IMG/VR virus record: IMGVR_UViG_3300028833_000003
Strand: one strand, 5' to 3'
DNA length: 64,000 bases
From: a virus
In this document: piece by piece, positions 1-20,012 of the stretch
Layout of the letters: the number at the start of each line of letters is the position of its first letter
How positions within the stretch are numbered: position 1 is the first letter of the stretch
Notes under the pieces: model-generated
Databases searched by the model: none
What the model was told of the DNA's origin: nothing
What the model saw: only the letters and a program-made list of their open reading frames with translations
Made by a program: the position numbers and the translations under genes

Positions 1-645
1 CAGGCAAGCTATTTACACTCAGCCAGAGATCTGGTGGCGTAAAGGCATCGTCGTAATTAGTATAAATGTTGCGTAGCAACCACGCAACCCGTCCGTGGGC
101 AGAATAGATGGGGTAAATTGAGTGTAAAAACTGGATACATGACCCAGTATAAAAAGGTGTCGCGCTTATAAGCCGCAAGTTCGCAATAGCTTATACAGTT
201 GCCCACTCTGTAAAAGGAGGCGCGCCGATAGACCGCAAGTGAAATAGTCTATTAAGGTGCCCAAATGCGGTAATTAGCGTGTAAGTTTTGAACAACTAAG
301 ACTGAGGAGCTCTGGGTCGCGCGCTATGAAGAATGGGTTAAATGGAGTTTGAGGAACAGCCAAGCGCAAACTGTATGGCTTTGTATGTGCCAGATTGCTC
401 GGCGCTTAATAAAAGAAGAGCAAAGTAAGCTCCTAGTTGCTGATAAAGTGAGTATAGTAAGGTTCTCATACTAGGATTGACCGAATCCCGCAGGTGGGAA
501 AGCACAACATCCCAGCCCGGTCAAGACAGGGTTAAGCCATCACGTGTGCCAGTGGATGCGGCGTACCGATAGGAAGTTCGGAGTAGGTCACTTTTGGAGA
601 TATTCAGAAATGCCGAATAGGCTATCCGGAAATTCTCCACTTTAT
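1..645 (+). ncRNA. Candidate large structured non-coding RNA directly upstream of the tRNA array (5' end cut by the window)
   Basis: The supplied track has no ORF of 60 aa or more here. GC is visibly above the AT-rich background. There are many hairpins, including GCAA loops. A tandem motif has compensatory stem changes. The region shares ATGCGGTAAT and GCGCGC strings with 5093-5566. Confidence 0.4.
152..263 (+). repeat. Tandem duplication of a ~52-nt RNA motif (AAAAGG-n-GCGCGC-stem-CCGCAAGT-stem-TGCCCA)
   Basis: Unit 1 is 152-205 and unit 2 is 212-263. The internal helix TATAAGC/GCTTATA (167-173/189-195) is replaced by ATAGAC/GTCTAT (228-233/247-252), so pairing is kept while the sequence differs. 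Confidence 0.6.
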
Positions 646-720
646 GCCCTGTTGGACAATCGGTAAAGTCGGCGGCCCTTCAAGCCACAGTGCCGGGTTC
701 AACTCCCGGACAGGGTACCA
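646..720 (+). tRNA. tRNA, nominal anticodon UUC (Glu-like), with non-canonical C33
   Basis: Hand-folded cloverleaf. Acceptor GCCCTGT/ACAGGGT, T arm CCGGG-TTCAACT-CCCGG, A73 and encoded CCA. The anticodon stem GCGGC/GCCAC has one C-A mismatch. The loop CCTTCAA puts TTC at positions 34-36 with C at position 33. Confidence 0.6.
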
Positions 721-845: not shown

Positions 846-1001
846 TTGCCCTTAAATGGGACGCCCTTTAAAGTTGTTTGCGGTAGTCGAATAACCTTCG
901 CTATGGCGAAGTAAAATATCCATAGCATTATATGGAACTAAATCTATCCCGAGTTCCTGCGGTTCAAGGATAGGGTTTGCGGCAACCTTAGCGCCGCGCA
1001 T

Positions 1002-1480: not shown

Positions 1481-2020
1481 ATGGCTGATGCTAGATTGAA
1501 GATTTTGCCGCCTTGGACAATTGTTATCCGTAAGTTTGAAGCATTGTTCGATGGTGATCCGTAGATTGCATGTAACTGTAACTTCGGCGGTTCTGCTCCA
1601 TCAATTGTATTTGCTTGCAATAACGGTGATAAGGTAGCTGCATTGCAGAAAATTCTTCCTGAGGAAATTAACTTTGGCAATGTCAAGCTCAAAGTAAAGG
1701 TTGATGGTATTCCTTCTAATCGTGCCTTCACCAGTAAGGTTGAACTATTTGATACTGCTTTCAAGGGCAATCCTGCTTATGCTTATTCTGTTTGCCCTGC
1801 TGAGGAAGGTTATCAGTGGATTGGAACAACTTATGTTGTATTCAATAACTGCGTAGTACAGTTCCCGGCTGACAATTTGAATGACTGTCATGGTATTATC
1901 AGTACTCTTTATGAGACTATTGCTGATGAACTTCTAACTGGTCCTGCTGTTCAAGGTGTATTCTTTAATACAAACGTTGAACGCGCTAACCTCGGTAAGC
2001 CGCTGGGTGAGTGGCCGTGA
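1481..2020 (+). CDS. Hypothetical protein (one in-frame TAG at 1562)
   Basis: ATG lies 8 nt after AAGGAGAG. It is in frame with track ORF 1643..2020 across a single TAG. The gene ends in TGA. It uses the AAG/CGT/GCT-rich codon regime shared with other probably highly expressed genes here. Confidence 0.7.
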
Positions 2021-5092: not shown

Positions 5093-5566
5093 CCAGGGCA
5101 TGCCTGGTTTATATTGTCTAGCAACAAGGCAATCACACTGCAATGTTGTATGTAGGTAAATGATGGGGAGGAGTTAAAGGCGTCCTCTCTCTGGGGCAAT
5201 GCGGTAATACCTGCGCGCGGGTAGCAAAGTTACCCTACCAGTAGTTAGAAGTCTGTAAAACTTCCATTGGGCTGGCTGAGAGGCCCTGGTCCATCTTCCT
5301 TGCCAACAGTGATAGTCCTGTTTAAGGCAAAAAACATGCGGGTTAGCTAAACGCGATGATGGCTAGTTTTAGGGTTTTACGCCACGCTTTTAAGGACTTT
5401 GGCATTGATAAGCAAATTTGCTTGTCTATACTAGTTAATGCCGCAGTTCTAATTTGTCTGCACACTCGATTGGTAGTGTCCCACAAAAAAACTTGTTGAA
5501 GAGTGAAGTTGGTGGTTTTAGCTCTTAAAAAATATCTTATATGCGCTAAGATAAGGGCGCTTAATA
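5093..5566 (+). ncRNA. Candidate structured non-coding RNA (~470 nt) between the tRNA array and the next gene
   Basis: No credible ORF on either strand even with TAG read through. The track ORFs here run through tRNAs. The region is GC-enriched and hairpin-rich. It begins with CCAGG-GCATG-CCTGG. It shares ATGCGGTAAT and GCGCGC strings with 1-645. Confidence 0.4.
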
Positions 5567-6019: not shown

Positions 6020-6136
6020 AAGACCTGTCAGCAATTATCTTTTTGCATTAGGAGCACGGGGTTCCAGGTTCGAATCCTGGGTCGGGGATTATTCCCCGGC
6101 TAGCTCAACTGGTAGAGCACGTTATTAGCGGGTCTT
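6020..6136 (+). ncRNA. Circularly permuted tRNA-like module (YrlA/Y-RNA-like candidate 1)
   Basis: Order of elements: closing helix AAGACC (6020-6025) with GGTCTT (6131-6136); T arm CCAGG-TTCGAAT-CCTGG (6064-6080); capped acceptor helix GTCGGGG (6081-6087), loop ATTATT, CCCCGGC (6094-6100); TA; D arm GCTC-AACTGGTA-GAGC (6103-6118). Confidence 0.5.
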
Positions 6137-8714: not shown

Positions 8715-8807
8715 AGCCCCTTAGTTCAACGGTAGAACACCGGTCTCTAAAACCGTTATATCCCTCTGAAGGAGGTAGTCTGGGTTCGAATCCCAGAGGG
8801 GCCGCCA
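8715..8807 (+). tRNA. Amber-suppressor tRNA, anticodon CUA, with a long (23-nt) variable region
   Basis: Acceptor AGCCCCT/AGGGGCC (A1-C72 mismatch, then 6 bp), U8, D arm GTTC-AACGGTA-GAAC, anticodon stem CGGT/ACCG with loop CTCTAAA, variable region 8757-8779 with a CCTC/GAGG stem, T arm CTGGG-TTCGAAT-CCCAG, G73, CCA encoded. Confidence 0.8.
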
Positions 8808-8811
8808 ATCA

Positions 8812-8921
8812 TCGACACGTACAGCAAATATAAAGAGTAATCTTTATGTCATGGGTTCAACTCCCATCCTGCACACAGTGCATGTAGCTTAGTTGGTAGA
8901 GCGAAAGAATATAAGTGTCGA
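8812..8921 (+). ncRNA. Circularly permuted tRNA-like module (YrlA/Y-RNA-like candidate 2)
   Basis: Order of elements: closing helix TCGACAC (8812-8818) with GTGTCGA (8915-8921); hairpin ATAAAGA-GTAA-TCTTTAT; T arm ATGGG-TTCAACT-CCCAT (8851-8867); capped acceptor CCTGCAC (8868-8874), loop ACA, GTGCATG (8878-8884); TA; D arm GCTT-AGTTGGTA-GAGC (8887-8902). AAAGA (8904-8908) is complementary to TCTTT (8841-8845). Confidence 0.55.
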
Positions 8922-8932
8922 GTAAATTTTTA

Positions 8933-10121: not shown

Positions 10122-10198
10122 TGGGGTGTAGCCAAGTTGGCCAAGGCATGGGACTTTGACTCCCACATTCGCAGGTTCGAGTCCTGCCACCCCAGCCA
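10122..10198 (+). tRNA. tRNA-Gln(TTG)
   Basis: Acceptor TGGGGTG/CACCCCA (U1-A72), anticodon arm TGGGA-CTTTGAC-TCCCA, T arm GCAGG-TTCGAGT-CCTGC, G73, CCA encoded. Confidence 0.9.
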
Positions 10199-10202
10199 AT
10201 AT

Positions 10203-10277
10203 GCCGTCGTGGCTCAATGGTAGAGCAGCTGATTTGTAATCAGCAGGTTGTAGGTTCGACTCCTATCGGCGGCTCCA
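10203..10277 (+). tRNA. tRNA-Thr(TGT)
   Basis: Acceptor GCCGTCG/CGGCGGC, anticodon arm GCTGA-TTTGTAA-TCAGC, T arm GTAGG-TTCGACT-CCTAT, U73, CCA encoded. Confidence 0.85.
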
Positions 10278-13046: not shown

Positions 13047-13607
13047 ATGAAAGCATATCTCGCTGGTAGTATTTTTTATCTTGGCGATAAATTTAGAAAT
13101 GAATACTTCTCTTAGAAATTGCGCGAGGCTTTCCCAGATTTAGATTTATATAATCCATTAGAAAATACTGCGATTAATGATAAAACTAAATTTGCCGATG
13201 CGAGAGCTATTGCTGATGGAGACAATGAACGTTTAAACAATAGTGATATTCTAATTGCTTGTATTGATGGAGATGTATTACCAAGTGGCACATGTTCAGA
13301 AATTGGAAAATTCCATGAAAAAATTGCACGCGGCGACCATAAGTTACTTGTGGGAATTTGTACTGATACACGTCAGCAATATCTCACTCATAGTGCAGAA
13401 AAAGATAGCACATACAACGAACCCGGTGAGTGCCAATATTGTTATGAAAATCTATATGTTACTGGACTCATTAAGCAAGCGGGCACTTTGGTAACAAATA
13501 TTGAAGATGCTATTAAAGCTATTTCTATTTGGTTAGATCAAAAGGATATAAAAGCTTTTATTAATGATTATCATACATTTTGGGAGGAAGGGTCTGAATG
13601 GCGGTAA
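13047..13607 (+). CDS. Nucleoside 2-deoxyribosyltransferase-like protein (one in-frame TAG at 13113)
   Basis: MKAYLAGSIF...D...ACIDG......GTCSEIG follows the deoxyribosyltransferase-fold pattern. It is in frame with track ORF 13119. Confidence 0.6.
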
Positions 13608-14884
13608 ATTATTCTTTACGAGAAAAACCTCGTAATTGGAAAGACGCAATTGGTTATACTCTATAGTTTGTATTTGCGGTCCTAACCGCAACTATTTTAA
13701 TCGCAACTATCTGCGGAACCAGCATCGCGGCAGGTCTCGTCGCAGCAGGTATCGGCACATTAACTTTTTTGTGTATCACAGGTTTTAAAGCGCCAATAGT
13801 GATTAGTAATAGCGGCGCTACGGTATCTGCGGTAGTAGGTGCATTAGCTCTATCTAGTGCAGTTGAAACTAATTTCGCTGGTGTTATTTTAGGTGGCGCG
13901 GTAATCGCAGTTATTTATGGAGCAGCAGCATTGGCAATTAAGAAATGGGGCATTCAATGGTTACAGAAGCTAATTCCGCCACTAATTTCGGGGACAACCA
14001 TATTAGTAATCGGTATTACATTGGCTGCATTTATTCCGACATACGCACTTGTGGGTGGCAGCTATTCGTTATGGGGCATCCTTATTGCGGGGATTACAGC
14101 AATAACCACAGTTCTGTGTATGCATTATGGGAAGAGCTTAGTCAAGACAATGCCTTTCTTAATTGGTTTGCTAGTAGGGTACATTGTCAGTTTTGTCCTA
14201 ACTTTAACAAATGTTGCTCCATTAGTCAACATGGACGCATTGAAGATTTCAAGTGTCTTTACTGTTCCCCAATTTGCCTTCTTGCAAACGAACTTCAATA
14301 CTTTCGATTGGTCAGCTCTACCGCAAATCATTCTCTCATTTGGAATGGTAGCACTTGCGGCAATGACTGAGCACATTGGAGATATGACGACTGCTTCTGC
14401 TGTAACTGGATATAATCTATTAGAAACTCCTGGTTTGCATCGCACATTACTTGGTGATGGCGTAGGTAGTTTAATGGGTACTATTGTTGGCGGATAGCCC
14501 AATACCACTTATAGTGAATATACTTCTACAATGGCAATTAGCGGAGTTTATAGCACTTGGTACACATTATATACTGCTATTGTTTTAATCGCACTTGGTT
14601 TTATTGCACCATTTAATGCTTTCTTAATGGCATTACCTAATGCGGTATTTGCTGGTGTATCAATAGTAGCATATGGTATGATTGCTCTTGCTGGTTTGCG
14701 CACTATTGTAAATGCAAATATTGATTTTAGCAATAGTAAAAATCAAATTATATTTGCGGCAATGGTAACAACCGGATTGAGTGGTTTAGCAATTACATAT
14801 GGAGCATTTAATTTAACAGGCATTGCGCTTGCAATGATTGTCGGTGTGCTATTGAATGTAATTTTAAAAAATAAGGGAGAGTAA
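13598..14884 (+). CDS. NCS2-family nucleobase (uracil/xanthine-type) permease (two in-frame TAGs: 13664, 14495)
   Basis: About 12 hydrophobic segments. Motifs include ...PNTTY.E......A..GVYS.W and TEHIGD. Track ORFs 13769 and 14531 are in one frame with ATG 13598, which follows GGGAGGAAGGG. TAG 13664 falls at the family Q of the QH motif. Confidence 0.85.
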
Positions 14885-14986: not shown

Positions 14987-16519
14987 ATGAGTGAATTTCT
15001 TAACAGCTTAAAGGTTGCTACTAACATGACCCATACGACTAATGGCGCTCTTACCTATAAGTCTACGCTTAACAAGGTGTATGATTTGTTCGCTCAGGGT
15101 GCGGCTATGCGTAATGGCGATGAATCTATGTGTCGTTCTTTGTTTATGTCTGCATATCATGAAAATCCTACGCTGGCATTAAAGTGTCTGTTCTATTTGC
15201 GTGATATTCGTGGCGGTCAAGGCGAGCGGCGCTTCTTCCGCATTGCTATTCGTTCACTGGCTCAGAAGTATCAAAAGGAAATGTCTAATCTGGTAAAGTA
15301 TATTCCTGAATTTGGTCGGTGGGATGACCTATATACTCTTGTAGATACCCCTCTGGAAAATGAAGCATTTGCTTTTATGAAGAAGCAGATTATGCTGGAC
15401 TTGGACAGCAAGACCCCTTCTTTGCTTGCTAAGTGGCTGAAGTCTGAGAATACCTCTTCTCAGGAGTCTGTGCGCTTGGCAACTAAGACTCGTCTGGCTT
15501 TCGGTCTGTCTGCGCGGCGTTATCGTAAGATGCTGTCTCTGCTTCGTAATCGTATTAACATCGTTGAAACTCTGATGTCTCAGAACCGCTGGGACGAGAT
15601 TGAGTTTGATAAGCTGCCTTCTCGGGCTGGTATTATTTATAAGAATGCATTCGCACGCCATGACATTACTAAGGCTCGTTATGAAGCATTTATTAAGGAT
15701 GAGAACACTAAGGTCAATACCGGAACTCTTTATCCTTATGATGTTGTTCATGAAGTATCTAAGTTGTGGAAGGGTTGGTATAACTATAAGCTGACTAAGG
15801 ACGTCAATGACGTTGAACGTTTGGCCATCAATAAGTATTGGGATAATCTGACCGATTATTTCAATGGTGCAACTCTGAACGCGCTGGCTGTTGTAGATAC
15901 CTCCGGTTCTATGACTAGTGGGTCTGGAAATATTGCTCCTATTGATGTCGCTATCGCTCTCGGTATGTATTGCGCTGACCGTGCGCAGGGACCTTTCCAT
16001 AATCACTTTGTTTCTTTCAGCCGCCGTCCTGAGTTGATTGAAATTGAGGGTGTGGATTTCTGCGAGAAGGTAAGCAATATCTATCGTCAGAACCTGTGTG
16101 AGAATACCAACATCGAAGCTACCTTTGATTTGCTTCTTAACACTGCAAAGCGCGCTCATCTGCGTCAGGATCAGCTTCCTCAGTCTCTGATTATCATCAG
16201 CGATATGCAGTTTGACCGGGCAACTGGCCGCTACTGTAATGATGATGAAATGGATGCATGGGCTAACACTTTGTTTGAAACTATTAATCAGCGCTGGGAA
16301 AATGCCGGATATGAGATGCCTCATCTTATCTTCTGGAACGTAAATGCTGCTTCTGGTGGCGGAAACATTCCTATGCGCGACAGTGGAAATGTTACTTACG
16401 TCAGCGGTGCTTCTCCTGTTATTCTGGAACAGGTGCTTACGGGCAAGACTGGCCAGGATGTCATGCTGGACAAGCTGATGTCTGAACGCTACGCTGTTAT
16501 CAAGTCTATTACTGAGTAA
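14987..16519 (+). CDS. DUF2828/TROVE-like protein with a C-terminal vWA domain (Ro60-related candidate)
   Basis: N-terminus T.NGALTY.ST.N...DLF......R........LF..AY.ENP.LALKCLFYLRDIRGGQGERR.F matches the remembered DUF2828 pattern. VDTSGSM is a vWA MIDAS-type motif. No TAG. AAG/CGT/CTG codon regime. Confidence 0.7.
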   Translation: MSEFLNSLKVATNMTHTTNGALTYKSTLNKVYDLFAQGAAMRNGDESMCRSLFMSAYHENPTLALKCLFYLRDIRGGQGERRFFRIAIRSLAQKYQKEMSNLVKYIPEFGRWDDLYTLVDTPLENEAFAFMKKQIMLDLDSKTPSLLAKWLKSENTSSQESVRLATKTRLAFGLSARRYRKMLSLLRNRINIVETLMSQNRWDEIEFDKLPSRAGIIYKNAFARHDITKARYEAFIKDENTKVNTGTLYPYDVVHEVSKLWKGWYNYKLTKDVNDVERLAINKYWDNLTDYFNGATLNALAVVDTSGSMTSGSGNIAPIDVAIALGMYCADRAQGPFHNHFVSFSRRPELIEIEGVDFCEKVSNIYRQNLCENTNIEATFDLLLNTAKRAHLRQDQLPQSLIIISDMQFDRATGRYCNDDEMDAWANTLFETINQRWENAGYEMPHLIFWNVNAASGGGNIPMRDSGNVTYVSGASPVILEQVLTGKTGQDVMLDKLMSERYAVIKSITE

Positions 16520-18608: not shown

Positions 18609-20012
18609 ATGGCATATTGTGGATATGTAGTTAAGGTAGAACATCTTCGTAAGCATACCAATGCGGACCGTCTGCAAATTGCTACTTTTTTTGGTAATGA
18701 TACTATTGTTGGTATGAACACTCAGTACGGTGATATTGGTGTTTATTTCCCTGTTGATGGTCAGTTATCTGAGCGCTTTTGTGAGGTAAATGACCTTGTG
18801 CGCCGCAAGGATGAAAACGGTAAGCAGGTTGGCGGTTATCTTGACCCTGATAAGCGTAACATAAAGGCCTTGAAGCTGCGTGGTGAAAAGTCTGATGGTC
18901 TTTATCTGCCTATTACTTGTTTAGCTGACTTCTGCAAGATTTCTGATTTGAAGGTTGGTGACACTATTGATACTGTCAATGGTGAGCTGATTTGCCAGAA
19001 GTACATTCCTCATTCTAATGCTCGCACTCATGCTGGCGGTGCGAAGGGTGTAAAGAAGGTCAAGGCCAACATCGCACCTACTTTCTATGAACATGTTGAT
19101 ACTGCTCAGTTGGCTTATAACCTCAACGCTTTTAAGCCTGGTGATACTGTTCAGCTGACCTTGAAGATGCATGGCACTTCTGGTCGTACTGGGTATCTAC
19201 CTCTGGTACATGTAAAGCAAACTTGGTTTGATAAGTTGTTCCATCGTCCTGGCAAGGAATATAAGGAGTATGGTTATATTACTGGCACTCGTCGTGTAGT
19301 CCTGGATGGGAAGCGCACTGGTGGTTTCTATGACTCTGATGATTTCCGTGAAGCTATGGCTGCCAAGTTCGATGGTAAGCTCCGTAAGGGCGAAGTTGCC
19401 TATTATGAAATCGTTGGATTCCAGGGACCTAATGGTGCTCCTATTATGAGCCAGGTTCAGAACTCTAAGGTAAAGGACCCTGAATTTACTAAGCAGTATG
19501 GTTCAGTAACTACTTTCTCTTATGGTTGTGAGCAAGATGGTGGCTATGAAGCTAAGAGCATCCTTGATCCTGGCGTAGAATTTAACAAGGCTCCTTGCTG
19601 TGAAGTGTATGTCTATCGTATGACTATGGTCAATGAAGATGGTGATGTAGTAGAATATTCTCCTGCTCAGATTAAGGAGCGTTGTGAGCAGATGGGTATT
19701 CATACTGTAATGGAATTTGAAACCTTCATAATTCCTGATATGATTCAGCTACCTGACGATGTTGGGTCTTTACAGGCGGTCGATGCTGGCGAATATGTTC
19801 TTCGTAAGGTTGAGCAGTATTTCGATGGTCCTGACCCTATCGGTAAGACCCATGTGCGCGAAGGAGTAGTTGCTCGTATCCTTAACCGTACTAACTTCGC
19901 AGTTTATAAGCACAAGAACTTCTCTTTCAAGGTGTTGGAAGGCATTGCCAAGGATGAAGCTACCGCGCCTGACATTGAAGAGGCTCAGGAAATAATGGAA
20001 GATGGAGTTTAA
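18609..20012 (+). CDS. RNA ligase (Rnl2/Rnl5-like nucleotidyltransferase) with an N-terminal tRNA-binding-type OB domain
   Basis: N-terminus VVKVEHLRKHTNADRLQI resembles the hPNADkL tRNA-binding OB motif. TLKMHGTSG fits the ligase motif I (K.HG). No TAG. All ten Lys codons in the first ~100 codons are AAG. Confidence 0.7.
   Translation: MAYCGYVVKVEHLRKHTNADRLQIATFFGNDTIVGMNTQYGDIGVYFPVDGQLSERFCEVNDLVRRKDENGKQVGGYLDPDKRNIKALKLRGEKSDGLYLPITCLADFCKISDLKVGDTIDTVNGELICQKYIPHSNARTHAGGAKGVKKVKANIAPTFYEHVDTAQLAYNLNAFKPGDTVQLTLKMHGTSGRTGYLPLVHVKQTWFDKLFHRPGKEYKEYGYITGTRRVVLDGKRTGGFYDSDDFREAMAAKFDGKLRKGEVAYYEIVGFQGPNGAPIMSQVQNSKVKDPEFTKQYGSVTTFSYGCEQDGGYEAKSILDPGVEFNKAPCCEVYVYRMTMVNEDGDVVEYSPAQIKERCEQMGIHTVMEFETFIIPDMIQLPDDVGSLQAVDAGEYVLRKVEQYFDGPDPIGKTHVREGVVARILNRTNFAVYKHKNFSFKVLEGIAKDEATAPDIEEAQEIMEDGV

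What the first reader, a model, noticed from the sequence alone, without database searches (positions are those of the whole stretch)
1..645. A stop-rich, GC-enriched, hairpin-dense region of at least 645 nt upstream of the tRNA array: candidate large ornate RNA (GOLLD/ROOL-like context)
Seen in sequence:
- There is no plausible ORF.
- A tandem 52-nt motif keeps its helix through different sequences (TATAAGC/GCTTATA versus ATAGAC/GTCTAT).
- There are several GCAA-capped hairpins.
- The terminal helix GGAGA...TCTCC lies just before the first tRNA.

Established knowledge: as I recall (Weinberg et al. 2009, 2017), GOLLD and ROOL RNAs are 500-800 nt, occur in phages and prophages of Firmicutes, and typically sit next to tRNA genes.

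Inference: the size, context and structure fit. I cannot recall the consensus motifs well enough to assign a family.
Basis: partly seen in the sequence, partly recalled or inferred. Interest (0 to 1): 0.65.

Follow-up and report, generated by a model that had tools for sequence, protein, structure and literature searches.

The report
Structured RNA cassettes in phage tRNA array
The stretch is not a GOLLD or ROOL giant RNA but a string of small, separately conserved, highly expressed folded RNAs sitting between tRNA genes of a sheep-rumen phage, and none of them, including a roughly 105-base three-way-junction RNA found in hundreds of gut phage contigs, matches any described RNA family.

Summary
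Window 1-645 is non-coding, G+C-enriched, abundantly transcribed and structured. It is not one ROOL/GOLLD-type RNA. Rfam 15 gives no non-tRNA hit, even at E<=10. The same search finds full-length ROOLs at other positions in the arrays of sister phages.

The region lies inside a tRNA array, not upstream of it, and the window start cuts it off. It is a chain of locally closed modules that recur separately and in different orders in relatives:
- M1 domain, 12-128.
- Two hairpins with a CGCAAGU loop (stems 167-195 and 227-253, period 60 rather than 52).
- A 106-nt three-way-junction RNA, 256-361.
- An H-type pseudoknot, 362-423.
- A tRNA-leader domain M4, 478-590.
- A strain-variable hairpin, 595-639.

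Each module except the small stem-loops at 130-148 and 433-474 and the strain-variable hairpin is backed by compensatory base changes. The three-way-junction family has over 170 distinct copies. It is always on the tRNA strand and in about a fifth of copies ends 8-25 nt before a tRNA.

Rumen metatranscriptomes show 1-430 at about 8-17 times the depth of the neighbouring gene.

Most likely these are stable small RNAs cut out of the tRNA precursor by tRNA-processing enzymes. Their function is unknown.

The parts
12..128 (+). M1: a multi-hairpin domain closed by a 10-bp helix (12-21/119-128). Inner helices are 22-26/31-35, 36-39/49-52, 68-72/76-80 and 88-93/107-112.
   Evidence: Perfect 10-bp inverted repeat (I4). 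Folding energy z=-3.0, with 0 of 200 shuffles as stable. In L033 the closing helix carries 4 compensatory double changes while the interior is about 97% identical. Only 3 homologues are known.
130..148 (+). Small hairpin ACUGG/CCAGU that precedes the AAAAAGGUG leader of the hairpin motif.
   Evidence: Fold (z=-2.2). The sequence ACCCAGUAUAAAAAGGUG recurs in front of most copies of the hairpin motif.
151..196 (+). Hairpin motif, copy 1: leader AAAAAGGUGUCGCGC, stem 167-173/189-195, 15-nt loop CGCAAGUUCGCAAUA.
   Evidence: Direct repeat D3 with spacing 60. Family of 13 distinct copies: 97.8% paired, 6 of 7 pairs with compensatory changes, covariation 0.575 against 0.275+-0.042 in shuffles.
211..253 (+). 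Hairpin motif, copy 2: stem 227-233/247-253, 13-nt loop CGCAAGUGAAAUA. It abuts the three-way-junction RNA.
   Evidence: Same family. In other phages the same hairpin sits directly before a tRNA (L005, L037, L052).
256..361 (+). Three-way-junction (3WJ) RNA. P1 256-258/359-361, P2 259-263/334-338, P3 275-282/319-326, P3a 284-287/294-297 (loop UUGAAC), P3b 300-306/312-318. Conserved joining strand UAAAUGGA 339-346. Putative P4 347-350/354-357.
   Evidence: Near-invariant 35-mer at 329-363. CM R1 scores 97 bits on the window. P1/P2 covariation: 0.254 against 0.116 (A3), and 0.332 against 0.109+-0.008 on 97 independent metagenome copies. P3/P3a/P3b: 12 compensatory pairs against 4.3+-1.5 (A8). 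Invariant U-G, G-U and U-G pairs fit only the + strand. P4 never varies, so it is unproven.
362..423 (+). H-type pseudoknot module. Helix a 362-367/402-407, hairpin 376-379/389-392, helix d 395-400/418-423. Conserved strands CAAAC and AUAAAAGA.
   Evidence: 16 distinct copies: 92% paired, covariation 0.165 against 0.080+-0.016, 4 pairs with compensatory changes. It also occurs apart from the 3WJ RNA (L033, L076, L034, and twice in L041).
433..474 (+). Variable stem-loop (433-437/470-474 and 448-452/465-469) after the pseudoknot.
   Evidence: Fold (z about 0). Relatives have a stem-loop at this place with other sequence (CCUAG...CUAGG against UUCAG...CUGAA). Support is weak.
478..590 (+). M4: a multi-helix domain closed by 478-482/586-590, with inner helix CCGCA/UGCGG and the conserved 3' hairpin CCGAUAGGAAGUUCGG.
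   Evidence: 11 homologues: 24 pairs, 94.7% paired, 12 compensatory pairs against 5.5+-1.5, covariation 0.396 against 0.182. In 6 of the 11 relatives it ends 7-12 nt before a tRNA. Most relatives carry a hairpin like a tRNA T-arm (AUGGUUCGAUUCCAU) where the window has other sequence.
595..639 (+). Strain-variable hairpin (UGGAGA/UCUCCA) inserted between M4 and tRNA-Glu.
   Evidence: z=-3.35. No homologue in 190 loci. Contigs of related strains replace or skip 591-642.
646..720 (+). tRNA-Glu(UUC), the next gene of the array. Its 5' processing would define the 3' end of the RNA upstream.
   Evidence: ARAGORN and Rfam.

Best explanation
Window 1-645 is the larger, 3' part of a tRNA-free gap of about 0.9-1.1 kb inside the tRNA array of a TAG-recoded rumen phage; related phage contigs are about 170-190 kb. 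It is transcribed on the tRNA strand. It consists of a chain of independent, locally closed, structured RNA cassettes: M1, two CGCAAGU-loop hairpins, a 106-nt three-way-junction RNA, an H-type pseudoknot, the M4 domain and a strain-variable hairpin.

Shown:
- Each of the five main cassette types (M1, the hairpin motif, the 3WJ RNA, the pseudoknot, M4) is conserved with compensatory base changes.
- The cassettes are reshuffled among relatives.
- They are always co-oriented with tRNAs.
- They are much more abundant in rumen RNA than the neighbouring gene.

Inferred:
- The cassettes are released from the polycistronic precursor by the enzymes that mature the flanking tRNAs (RNase P at the downstream tRNA 5' end, RNase Z or RNase E at the upstream 3' trailer). 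They then persist as stable small RNAs of about 60-130 nt, like the two non-tRNA stable RNAs of the phage T4 tRNA cluster.
- They serve the phage's tRNA supply and RNA-repair programme, which also includes a Ro60-like protein, an RNA ligase, YrlA-like RNAs and, in sister phages, ROOL. They would act as protein-binding or decoy RNAs.

The biochemical role of each cassette is not known.
For: - No coding capacity.
- No Rfam family other than tRNA.
- Mosaic homology: seven sub-stretches hit different loci at different places.
- The homologous stretch in L056 lies between two tRNAs.
- Covariation: 3WJ, pseudoknot, hairpin, M4, M1.
- The 3WJ family is in 45 IMG/VR contigs, at least 120 metagenome contigs and 5 gut MAG contigs. 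There are 74 + 7 + 99 CM hits.
- Every flanking tRNA is on the same strand: all hits, and 120 of 120.
- 3WJ copies end 8-22 nt before a tRNA in 12 or more cases, and some fill a whole inter-tRNA spacer, for example L089. M4 does the same.
- RNA abundance. In run X3 the unitigs over 1-430 have depth 169-358, against 46 for 401-795, 7 for 768-980 and 20 for the ORF, while DNA runs are flat at 19-41. In X26 the figures are 146-297 against 17. X7 gives 186-376 over 12-703 against 11-43. Three low-depth metatranscriptomes assemble only 1-590.
Against: - RNA ends and strand were not observed. Only assembled contigs without direction were available, so excision into separate small RNAs is an inference.
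- Unitig depth can be inflated where several strains share sequence.
- One RNA contig of 1043 nt spans the region continuously. This is equally compatible with one long RNA.
- The window's own 3WJ copy lacks the extended P1 seen elsewhere and lies 285 nt from the next tRNA.
- No protein partner is specifically linked. The Ro60-like gene is near tRNA arrays in 69 of 80 loci but near a 3WJ in only 7.
Confidence: 0.7

Rival explanations
1. The whole inter-tRNA gap is one new large ornate RNA of about 0.8-1.1 kb. It would be a functional analogue of GOLLD or ROOL with variable peripheral domains.
For: - RNA coverage is high and continuous across 12-703 in X7.
- A single 1043-nt RNA contig covers the region in X27.
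- Blocks A-F are colinear in about 17 loci.
- GOLLD is known to have a variable 5' half (PMC12286853).
Against: - Modules occur alone, duplicated or in another order: L041 has pseudoknot, hairpins, 3WJ, pseudoknot; in L076 and L034 the pseudoknot comes directly after tRNA-Met; in L033 M1 lies elsewhere.
- In other phages the 3WJ stands alone with its own closing helix of 8-12 bp, flanked by tRNAs.
- All supported helices are local.
- Whole-region folding energy is ordinary.
- There is no Rfam hit.
Confidence: 0.12
2. The 3WJ RNA or M4 is a Y-RNA-like partner of the phage's Ro60-like protein. It would act in RNA quality control or repair together with the RNA ligase.
For: - The protein at 14987-16519 (DUF2828 + DUF7788) models as a Ro60/TROVE + vWA fold. 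Its top 11 PDB hits are all Ro60, Rsr or a phage TROVE protein.
- An RNA ligase lies at 18609-20012.
- Ro60-like genes lie within 10 kb of tRNAs in 69 of 80 loci.
- Bacterial and phage Y RNAs are tRNA-like and encoded near Ro60 (PMC4201824).
- M4 relatives carry a hairpin like a tRNA T-arm.
Against: - Only 7 of 80 Ro60-like loci have a 3WJ within 10 kb.
- Neither the 3WJ nor M4 hits the YrlA model.
- Better YrlA-like candidates lie elsewhere in the array: 6056-6125 at 35.7 bits and 8826-8932 at 32.4 bits.
- From my own knowledge, P1 of the 3WJ lacks the bulged-C helix that Ro60 recognises in Y RNAs.
Confidence: 0.1
3. The modules are cis-acting spacer or leader elements only. They would keep neighbouring tRNAs folding independently, protect the precursor from exonucleases or guide its processing, and would have no role once cut off.
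For: They lie directly before tRNA 5' ends and have no specificity for the tRNA that follows: Ile, Leu, Glu, Gln, Ser, Arg, Gly, Thr and Asn all occur.
Against: - About 25 near-invariant unpaired nucleotides are kept across phages whose flanks cannot be aligned. That is more than a spacer needs.
- RNA accumulates well above the flanking sequence.
- Most copies are more than 100 nt from any tRNA.
Confidence: 0.15
4. The stretch is decayed tRNA pseudogenes or recombination scars, or a small protein gene read with recoded stops.
For: - tRNA-like fragments exist in the gaps of relatives.
- The phage reads TAG as sense: there is an in-frame TAG at 1561 and a tRNA(CUA) at 8715-8807.
Against: - Compensatory changes and invariant cores indicate selection on RNA structure.
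- TAA and TGA stops occur in every frame, and the longest TAG-read frame has no ATG.
- Insertions in relatives are not multiples of three, for example 65 nt in L008.
Confidence: 0.02

Closest known systems
ROOL RNA (Rfam RF03087)
   Same: A rumen-derived phage RNA encoded in or beside tRNA islands, abundant and of unknown function. Sister phages of this one carry full-length ROOLs in the same arrays (L028:6797-7381, L029:5153-5728, L014:5892-6475).
   Different: [quoted passage not shown] This region gives no ROOL hit at all, is modular, and occupies a different position in the array from the ROOLs of relatives.
GOLLD RNA
   Same: Encoded in phages and prophages, often near tRNAs, with a variable part and sometimes embedded tRNAs (PMC12286853).
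   Different: No hit to the GOLLD model. No conserved large 3' domain. The modules occur independently.
Stable non-tRNA RNAs of the phage T4 tRNA cluster (species 1 and 2, rnaC/rnaD) - from my own knowledge, not tested here
   Same: Small stable RNAs of unknown function, encoded among phage tRNA genes, co-transcribed with them and matured by tRNA-processing enzymes. This is the mechanism proposed here.
   Different: No sequence or structure comparison could be made. The T4 RNAs were not compared here. Processing of the present RNAs has not been shown.
YrlA / bacterial and phage Y RNAs (Rfam RF02553) with Ro60
   Same: Structured RNAs of about 100 nt closed by a terminal stem, encoded near a Ro60-type protein and near RNA-repair genes. 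A Ro60-like fold is encoded 14 kb downstream.
   Different: There is no YrlA hit in 1-645. The weak YrlA-like hits lie at 6056-6125 and 8826-8932. The window's own 3WJ RNA and M4 copy contain no hairpin like a tRNA T-arm or D-arm. The 3WJ does not track the Ro60-like gene.
DUF3800-I, drum and skipping-rope RNAs (orphan, highly conserved motifs; Weinberg et al. 2017)
   Same: Compact motifs with many invariant nucleotides, not riboswitch-like in context and of unknown function (PMC5737381). A DUF3800-I RNA lies directly after the 3WJ in L041, and a drum RNA lies in the array of L028.
   Different: Different sequence and fold (no Rfam hit). No terminator follows the 3WJ. No DUF3800 gene association was seen among neighbouring ORFs.

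Membership tests
ROOL (RF03087) | Match to the Rfam covariance model at or above 99.1 bits | tested here: not met
   No hit in the 64-kb window at the gathering threshold, nor at E<=10 on 1-1500 or on the complete homologous gap L056:7900-9050. The same tool scores 328-346 bits on ROOLs in L014, L028 and L029.
ROOL (RF03087) | [quoted passage not shown] | tested here: not met
   The region resolves into independent modules of 40-120 nt that recur separately. No long-range helix was found.
ROOL / GOLLD | Genomic context: phage or prophage, near tRNA genes | tested here: met
   25 tRNAs follow in the window. Phage replication genes are present. Relatives are IMG/VR contigs of 170-190 kb.
GOLLD | Match to the Rfam covariance model, with its conserved 3' domain | tested here: not met
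   No hit at the gathering threshold or at E<=10.
HEARO / raiA | Match to the Rfam covariance models | tested here: not met
   No hit at E<=10.
YrlA (RF02553) | Covariance-model match, with a tRNA-like T arm, stem-loop and D arm inside a terminal stem | tested here: not met
   No YrlA hit in 1-645 at E<=10. Sub-threshold hits occur only at 6056-6125, 8826-8932 and 10169-10226.
tRNA / tRNA pseudogene | Cloverleaf detected by ARAGORN or the Rfam tRNA model | tested here: not met
   Neither finds anything in 1-645.
Self-cleaving ribozymes and riboswitches in Rfam | Covariance-model match | tested here: not met
   No hit at E<=10. Cleavage or ligand binding itself cannot be tested with these tools.
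Stable RNAs excised from a phage tRNA operon (T4 type) | Discrete 5' and 3' ends made by tRNA-processing enzymes | not testable with these tools
   Only direction-less assembled contigs were available for the RNA runs. The geometry fits: copies end 8-25 nt before tRNAs.

The most novel reading that the evidence does not exclude
The 106-nt three-way-junction RNA is a new class of phage small RNA with a biochemical job of its own. The same may hold for M4 and the pseudoknot. Its core is GGUGC...GUUAAAUGGAGUUUGARGAACAGCC. Possible jobs are a catalytic or ligand-binding core, a module that docks on tRNAs, or a decoy for host nucleases that attack tRNAs. On this reading it is produced in large amounts from the tRNA array by tRNA punctuation, and the arrays of gut and rumen phages are general expression platforms for a whole set of undescribed functional RNAs.
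Probability: 0.3. Interest if true: 0.8.

Novelty: new variant of a known kind. Interest (0 to 1): 0.6.

Why it matters
Phage tRNA islands are already known to host enigmatic RNAs such as GOLLD and ROOL, whose functions remain open even after cryo-EM structures.

This locus shows that in ruminant-gut phages the same islands carry several further conserved, covarying and highly expressed RNA families. None of them matches any of the 4227 Rfam 15 families, and the three-way-junction RNA also has no match in 50,697 GenBank phage records. They lie next to a Ro60-like protein, an RNA ligase and YrlA-like RNAs.

The three-way-junction RNA is a concrete target. There are over 170 distinct copies, about 25 near-invariant nucleotides and a defined secondary structure, so structure probing, cleavage and binding assays and cryo-EM are all feasible.

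If the cassettes are released by tRNA-processing enzymes, phage tRNA arrays work as operons for non-tRNA small RNAs. That would change how the many 'spacers' in such arrays are annotated.

Tried and rejected
- **Rfam searches.** Gathering threshold on the whole window, E<=10 on 1-1500, on the L056 gap and on L023, and E<=1 on 1-20500. None gave a non-tRNA hit in 1-645.
- **Isolated phages.** BLAST of the region and of the conserved 35-mer against 50,697 GenBank phage records gave nothing, or only chance hits inside protein genes.
- **Literature.** Full-text search for the conserved sequence found 0 papers. The supplements of Weinberg et al. 2017 are not held.
- **Recalled resemblances, dropped.** SRP (4.5S) RNA, 5S rRNA, the hammerhead, twister, pistol and hatchet cores, and RNase P motifs were considered from memory. 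All were dropped because no Rfam model hits and my recalled alignments did not hold up.
- **T-loop reading.** The T-loop and double-T-loop reading of the two UUUGA pentads is not established. Half the copies have G where a T-loop needs A.
- **Protein-coding reading with TAG read through.** Rejected.
- **Ro60-like gene and the 3WJ.** Co-occurrence tested at 7 of 80 loci, so no specific link.
- **Neighbouring ORFs.** Clustering ORFs within 5 kb of 73 3WJ copies gave only the shared synteny of the rumen family and no recurrent functional partner.
- **RNAalifold on MAFFT alignments.** It recovered only P1, P2 and P4, because the variable domains misalign.
- **A helix between CAAACUG and CAGAUU in the pseudoknot module.** It could not be put in a consistent register across homologues and is left out.

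Full report
**1. What is at the coordinates**

Window 1-645 precedes tRNA-Glu (646-720), the first of 25 co-oriented tRNAs that run to 10630. It has no credible ORF. The longest open frames are 60-63 codons. This phage reads TAG as sense: there is an in-frame TAG at 1561 and a tRNA(CUA) at 8715-8807. Even with TAG read through, the best frames reach only 69 (+) and 95 (-) codons without an ATG, against a median of 180 in coding stretches of equal length. G+C is 46.7% against 36.9% in the coding part. As a whole the stretch folds no better than shuffled sequence (z=-0.12 on +, -1.6 on -).

**2. It is not GOLLD, ROOL, HEARO or raiA**

Rfam 15 (4227 models) gives only tRNAs in the 64-kb window at the gathering threshold. 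It gives nothing else in 1-645 at E<=10. The window start cuts the region, so I repeated the search on the complete homologous gap of the closest relative (L056:7900-9050). Again there was nothing. The search does work. In sister phages it finds full-length ROOL RNAs (328-346 bits) at other positions of the same arrays, together with a tmRNA, group I introns and drum, DUF3800-I and abiF RNAs.

**3. Context**

A protein search with the small ORF at 1482-2020 brought in 60 IMG/VR loci from phage contigs of about 170-190 kb. Public runs that hold the sequence are sheep, goat and bovine gut metagenomes. The rest of the window encodes topoisomerase II, DNA ligase, DnaB, RecJ, Dda, a DNA polymerase and NrdD.

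In L056 the sequence homologous to window 1-428 lies between tRNA-Met and tRNA-Thr. So the region is inside the array, and roughly 270 nt of the gap are missing from the window.

**4. The region is a mosaic**

BLAST and nhmmer of sub-stretches hit different relatives at different places and in different orders, always on the tRNA strand. Alignment of the gaps shows islands of near-invariant sequence separated by variable hairpins and insertions.

**5. The three-way-junction RNA (256-361)**

- *Conserved core.* A 35-mer (329-363) is almost invariant among loci that otherwise diverge strongly. It occurs once in the window.
- *Distribution.* The pattern TAAATGGARTTTRARGNNCAGCC is found in 45 IMG/VR contigs. 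GenBank phages have no match.
- *Outside the window's own family.* The motif is closed by a helix of 8-12 bp whose sequence differs from copy to copy.
- *P1 and P2.* On a 33-sequence alignment, P1 (GGU/GCC plus extension) and P2 give a covariation score of 0.254 against 0.116+-0.014 in shuffles and at most 0.10 when the partners are slid.
- *Covariance model.* Model R1 finds 74 copies in 93 sources, one of them in the window (246-371, 97 bits). It finds 99 in 80 metagenome loci. On those 97 independent distinct sequences the score is 0.332 against 0.109+-0.008, with 45 extra pair types against 37+-2 (0 of 500 shuffles). This alignment is fitted to the model, which favours the structure somewhat.
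- *The window's subfamily.* The inner helices P3, P3a and P3b carry 12 pairs with compensatory changes, against 4.3+-1.5 expected.
- *Strand.* The invariant U-G and G-U pairs fit only the + strand.
- *Unproven.* P4 (GUUU-GAR-GAAC) never varies, so it is not established.

**6. The other modules**

- *Hairpin motif.* It has leader AAAAAGGUGCCGCG, a 7-bp stem and loop CGCAAGUUCGCAAUA. It is present twice, 60 nt apart. In 13 distinct copies, 6 of 7 stem pairs show compensatory changes. Elsewhere it sits directly before a tRNA.
- *Pseudoknot (362-423).* It has two interleaved helices and a small hairpin: 92% paired, with a covariation score twice that of shuffles. It also occurs on its own, for example directly after tRNA-Met in L076 and L034, and twice in L041.
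- *M4 (478-590).* It has 24 pairs, 12 of them with compensatory changes, against 5.5+-1.5. In 6 of the 11 relatives it ends 7-12 nt before a tRNA.
- *M1 (12-128).* It is thermodynamically unusual (z=-3.0). In L033 its 10-bp closing helix carries four compensatory double changes around a nearly identical interior.
- *Last hairpin (595-639).* It is very stable (z=-3.35) but has no homologue. It is replaced or absent in related strains.

**7. Relation to tRNAs**

Every tRNA flanking a 3WJ copy is on the same strand: all cases, and 120 of 120 in the independent set. In 12 or more copies of the first set, and in 15 of 70 of the second, a tRNA starts 8-25 nt after the motif. In L089 the motif fills the whole spacer between two tRNAs. 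The tRNA that follows varies. Other spacers of the window's array (846-1001, 1156-1314) are also conserved families.

**8. Expression**

Only assembled contigs of public runs were available, so strand and ends are unknown.

| Run | Kind | Depth over the region | Depth of comparison stretches |
|---|---|---|---|
| X1, X2 | DNA | flat, 19-41 | - |
| X3 | RNA | 169-358 over 1-430; 46 over 401-795 | 7 over 768-980; 20 on the ORF |
| X26 | RNA | 146-297 | 17 |
| X7 | RNA | 186-376 over 12-703 | 11-43 |

Three shallow metatranscriptomes assemble only 1-590 and nothing of the neighbouring gene. One of them does so as a single 1043-nt contig. At least 20 rumen or gut RNA runs hold parts of the region. 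Depth of shared unitigs may add up several strains. The within-run contrast with the DNA profile still shows a strongly accumulating RNA.

**9. Possible partners**

The 510-aa protein at 14987-16519 (DUF2828 + DUF7788, phrog_850 'RNA-binding protein') was modelled with pLDDT 82.8. It matches Ro60, Rsr and a phage TROVE structure in its 11 best PDB hits (E 1e-8 to 7e-6, TM up to 0.6 (0.37-0.60)). An RNA ligase follows at 18609-20012.

Ro60-like genes lie within 10 kb of tRNAs in 69 of 80 IMG/VR loci, but a 3WJ is present in only 7 of them. Weak YrlA-like hits lie elsewhere in the window's array (6056-6125, 8826-8932). So the Ro60-like protein more probably pairs with those RNAs. A link to the modules of 1-645 is possible but unsupported.

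**10. Interpretation**

The evidence fits a chain of independent structured RNA cassettes embedded in a tRNA operon. The most economical mechanism is release by the tRNA-maturing enzymes and persistence as stable small RNAs, as is known (from my own knowledge) for the two non-tRNA RNAs of the T4 tRNA cluster.

The large number of invariant unpaired nucleotides in the 3WJ and M4 argues for a specific partner or tertiary fold rather than a mere spacer role. What that role is cannot be decided here.

The single-large-RNA reading keeps some probability because RNA coverage is continuous. The reshuffling of modules and the absence of any enclosing helix speak against it.

**11. Novelty**

The context is known. 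The RNA families are not: they are absent from Rfam 15, and the three-way-junction RNA is also absent from 50,697 GenBank phage records and from the searchable literature. I rate this as a new variant of a known kind, of moderate to good interest.

Noticed in passing
L028:6797-7381, L029:5153-5728, L014:5892-6475: Full-length ROOL RNAs (328-346 bits) lie in the tRNA arrays of sister phages. They sit at a different array position from the region studied. The window itself has none.
   Followed up: partly
window 14987-16519: A 510-aa DUF2828 + DUF7788 protein models as a Ro60/TROVE + vWA fold, although it has no detectable sequence similarity to solved Ro60 structures. The family is very large (over 7900 hits) and usually lies next to phage tRNA arrays.
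   Followed up: yes
window 6056-6125, 8826-8932, 10169-10226: Sub-threshold YrlA (Y RNA-like) hits lie inside the tRNA array (35.7, 32.4 and 23 bits). They are plausible partners of the Ro60-like protein. Similar elements, with a T arm, a stem-loop and a D arm in that order, are in L023:1927-1982 and in the gaps of L025, L040 and L055.
   Followed up: partly
window 5165-5295: A sub-threshold match to the cow-rumen-3 RNA (42 bits, E=1.4e-6, full model length), with a DUF3800-XI-like piece at 5268-5295.
   Followed up: no
window 1482-2020 and 8715-8807: There is an in-frame TAG at 1561 in a conserved ORF, and a 93-nt tRNA with anticodon CUA and a long variable arm. The phage reads TAG as a sense codon.
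   Followed up: partly
window 846-1001 and 1156-1314: Other inter-tRNA spacers of the array are also conserved families (35 and 8 hits). Sub-units of about 70 nt end 2-3 nt before tRNA-Lys or tRNA-Arg in many relatives. Non-tRNA cassettes seem to be the rule throughout these arrays.
   Followed up: partly
L041:7630-7735; also L006 and L008 at the same place: An insertion between the 3WJ RNA and the pseudoknot scores as a DUF3800-I RNA in L041 (57 bits, above the gathering score).
   Followed up: no
L056:8780-8996 and the same place in about 15 relatives: A further conserved module is absent from the window. Its helix ACGGGA/UCCCGU covaries (ACGAGA/UCUCGU in L026 and L028). It encloses about 100-150 nt and ends in a hairpin-type pseudoknot (CUCAG-UUGCGG-CUGAG-UUAUCAAA-CCGC) just before the next tRNA. 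It has no Rfam hit.
   Followed up: partly
window 591-642: Contigs of related strains replace this 52-nt hairpin by 95 other letters (X7) or delete it, leaving GA (X3). This is an insertion hotspot between M4 and tRNA-Glu.
   Followed up: partly
L029:8327-8679; L056:10507-10721; L029:14063-14248; L041, L028 and L029 (several places): Related phages carry a tmRNA, group I introns, and tRNA-model hits of 118-189 nt that suggest intron-containing tRNAs.
   Followed up: no
window 13119-13607 and 13769-14497: ORFs with nucleoside 2-deoxyribosyltransferase and xanthine/uracil-permease family matches lie between the array and the Ro60-like gene.
   Followed up: no
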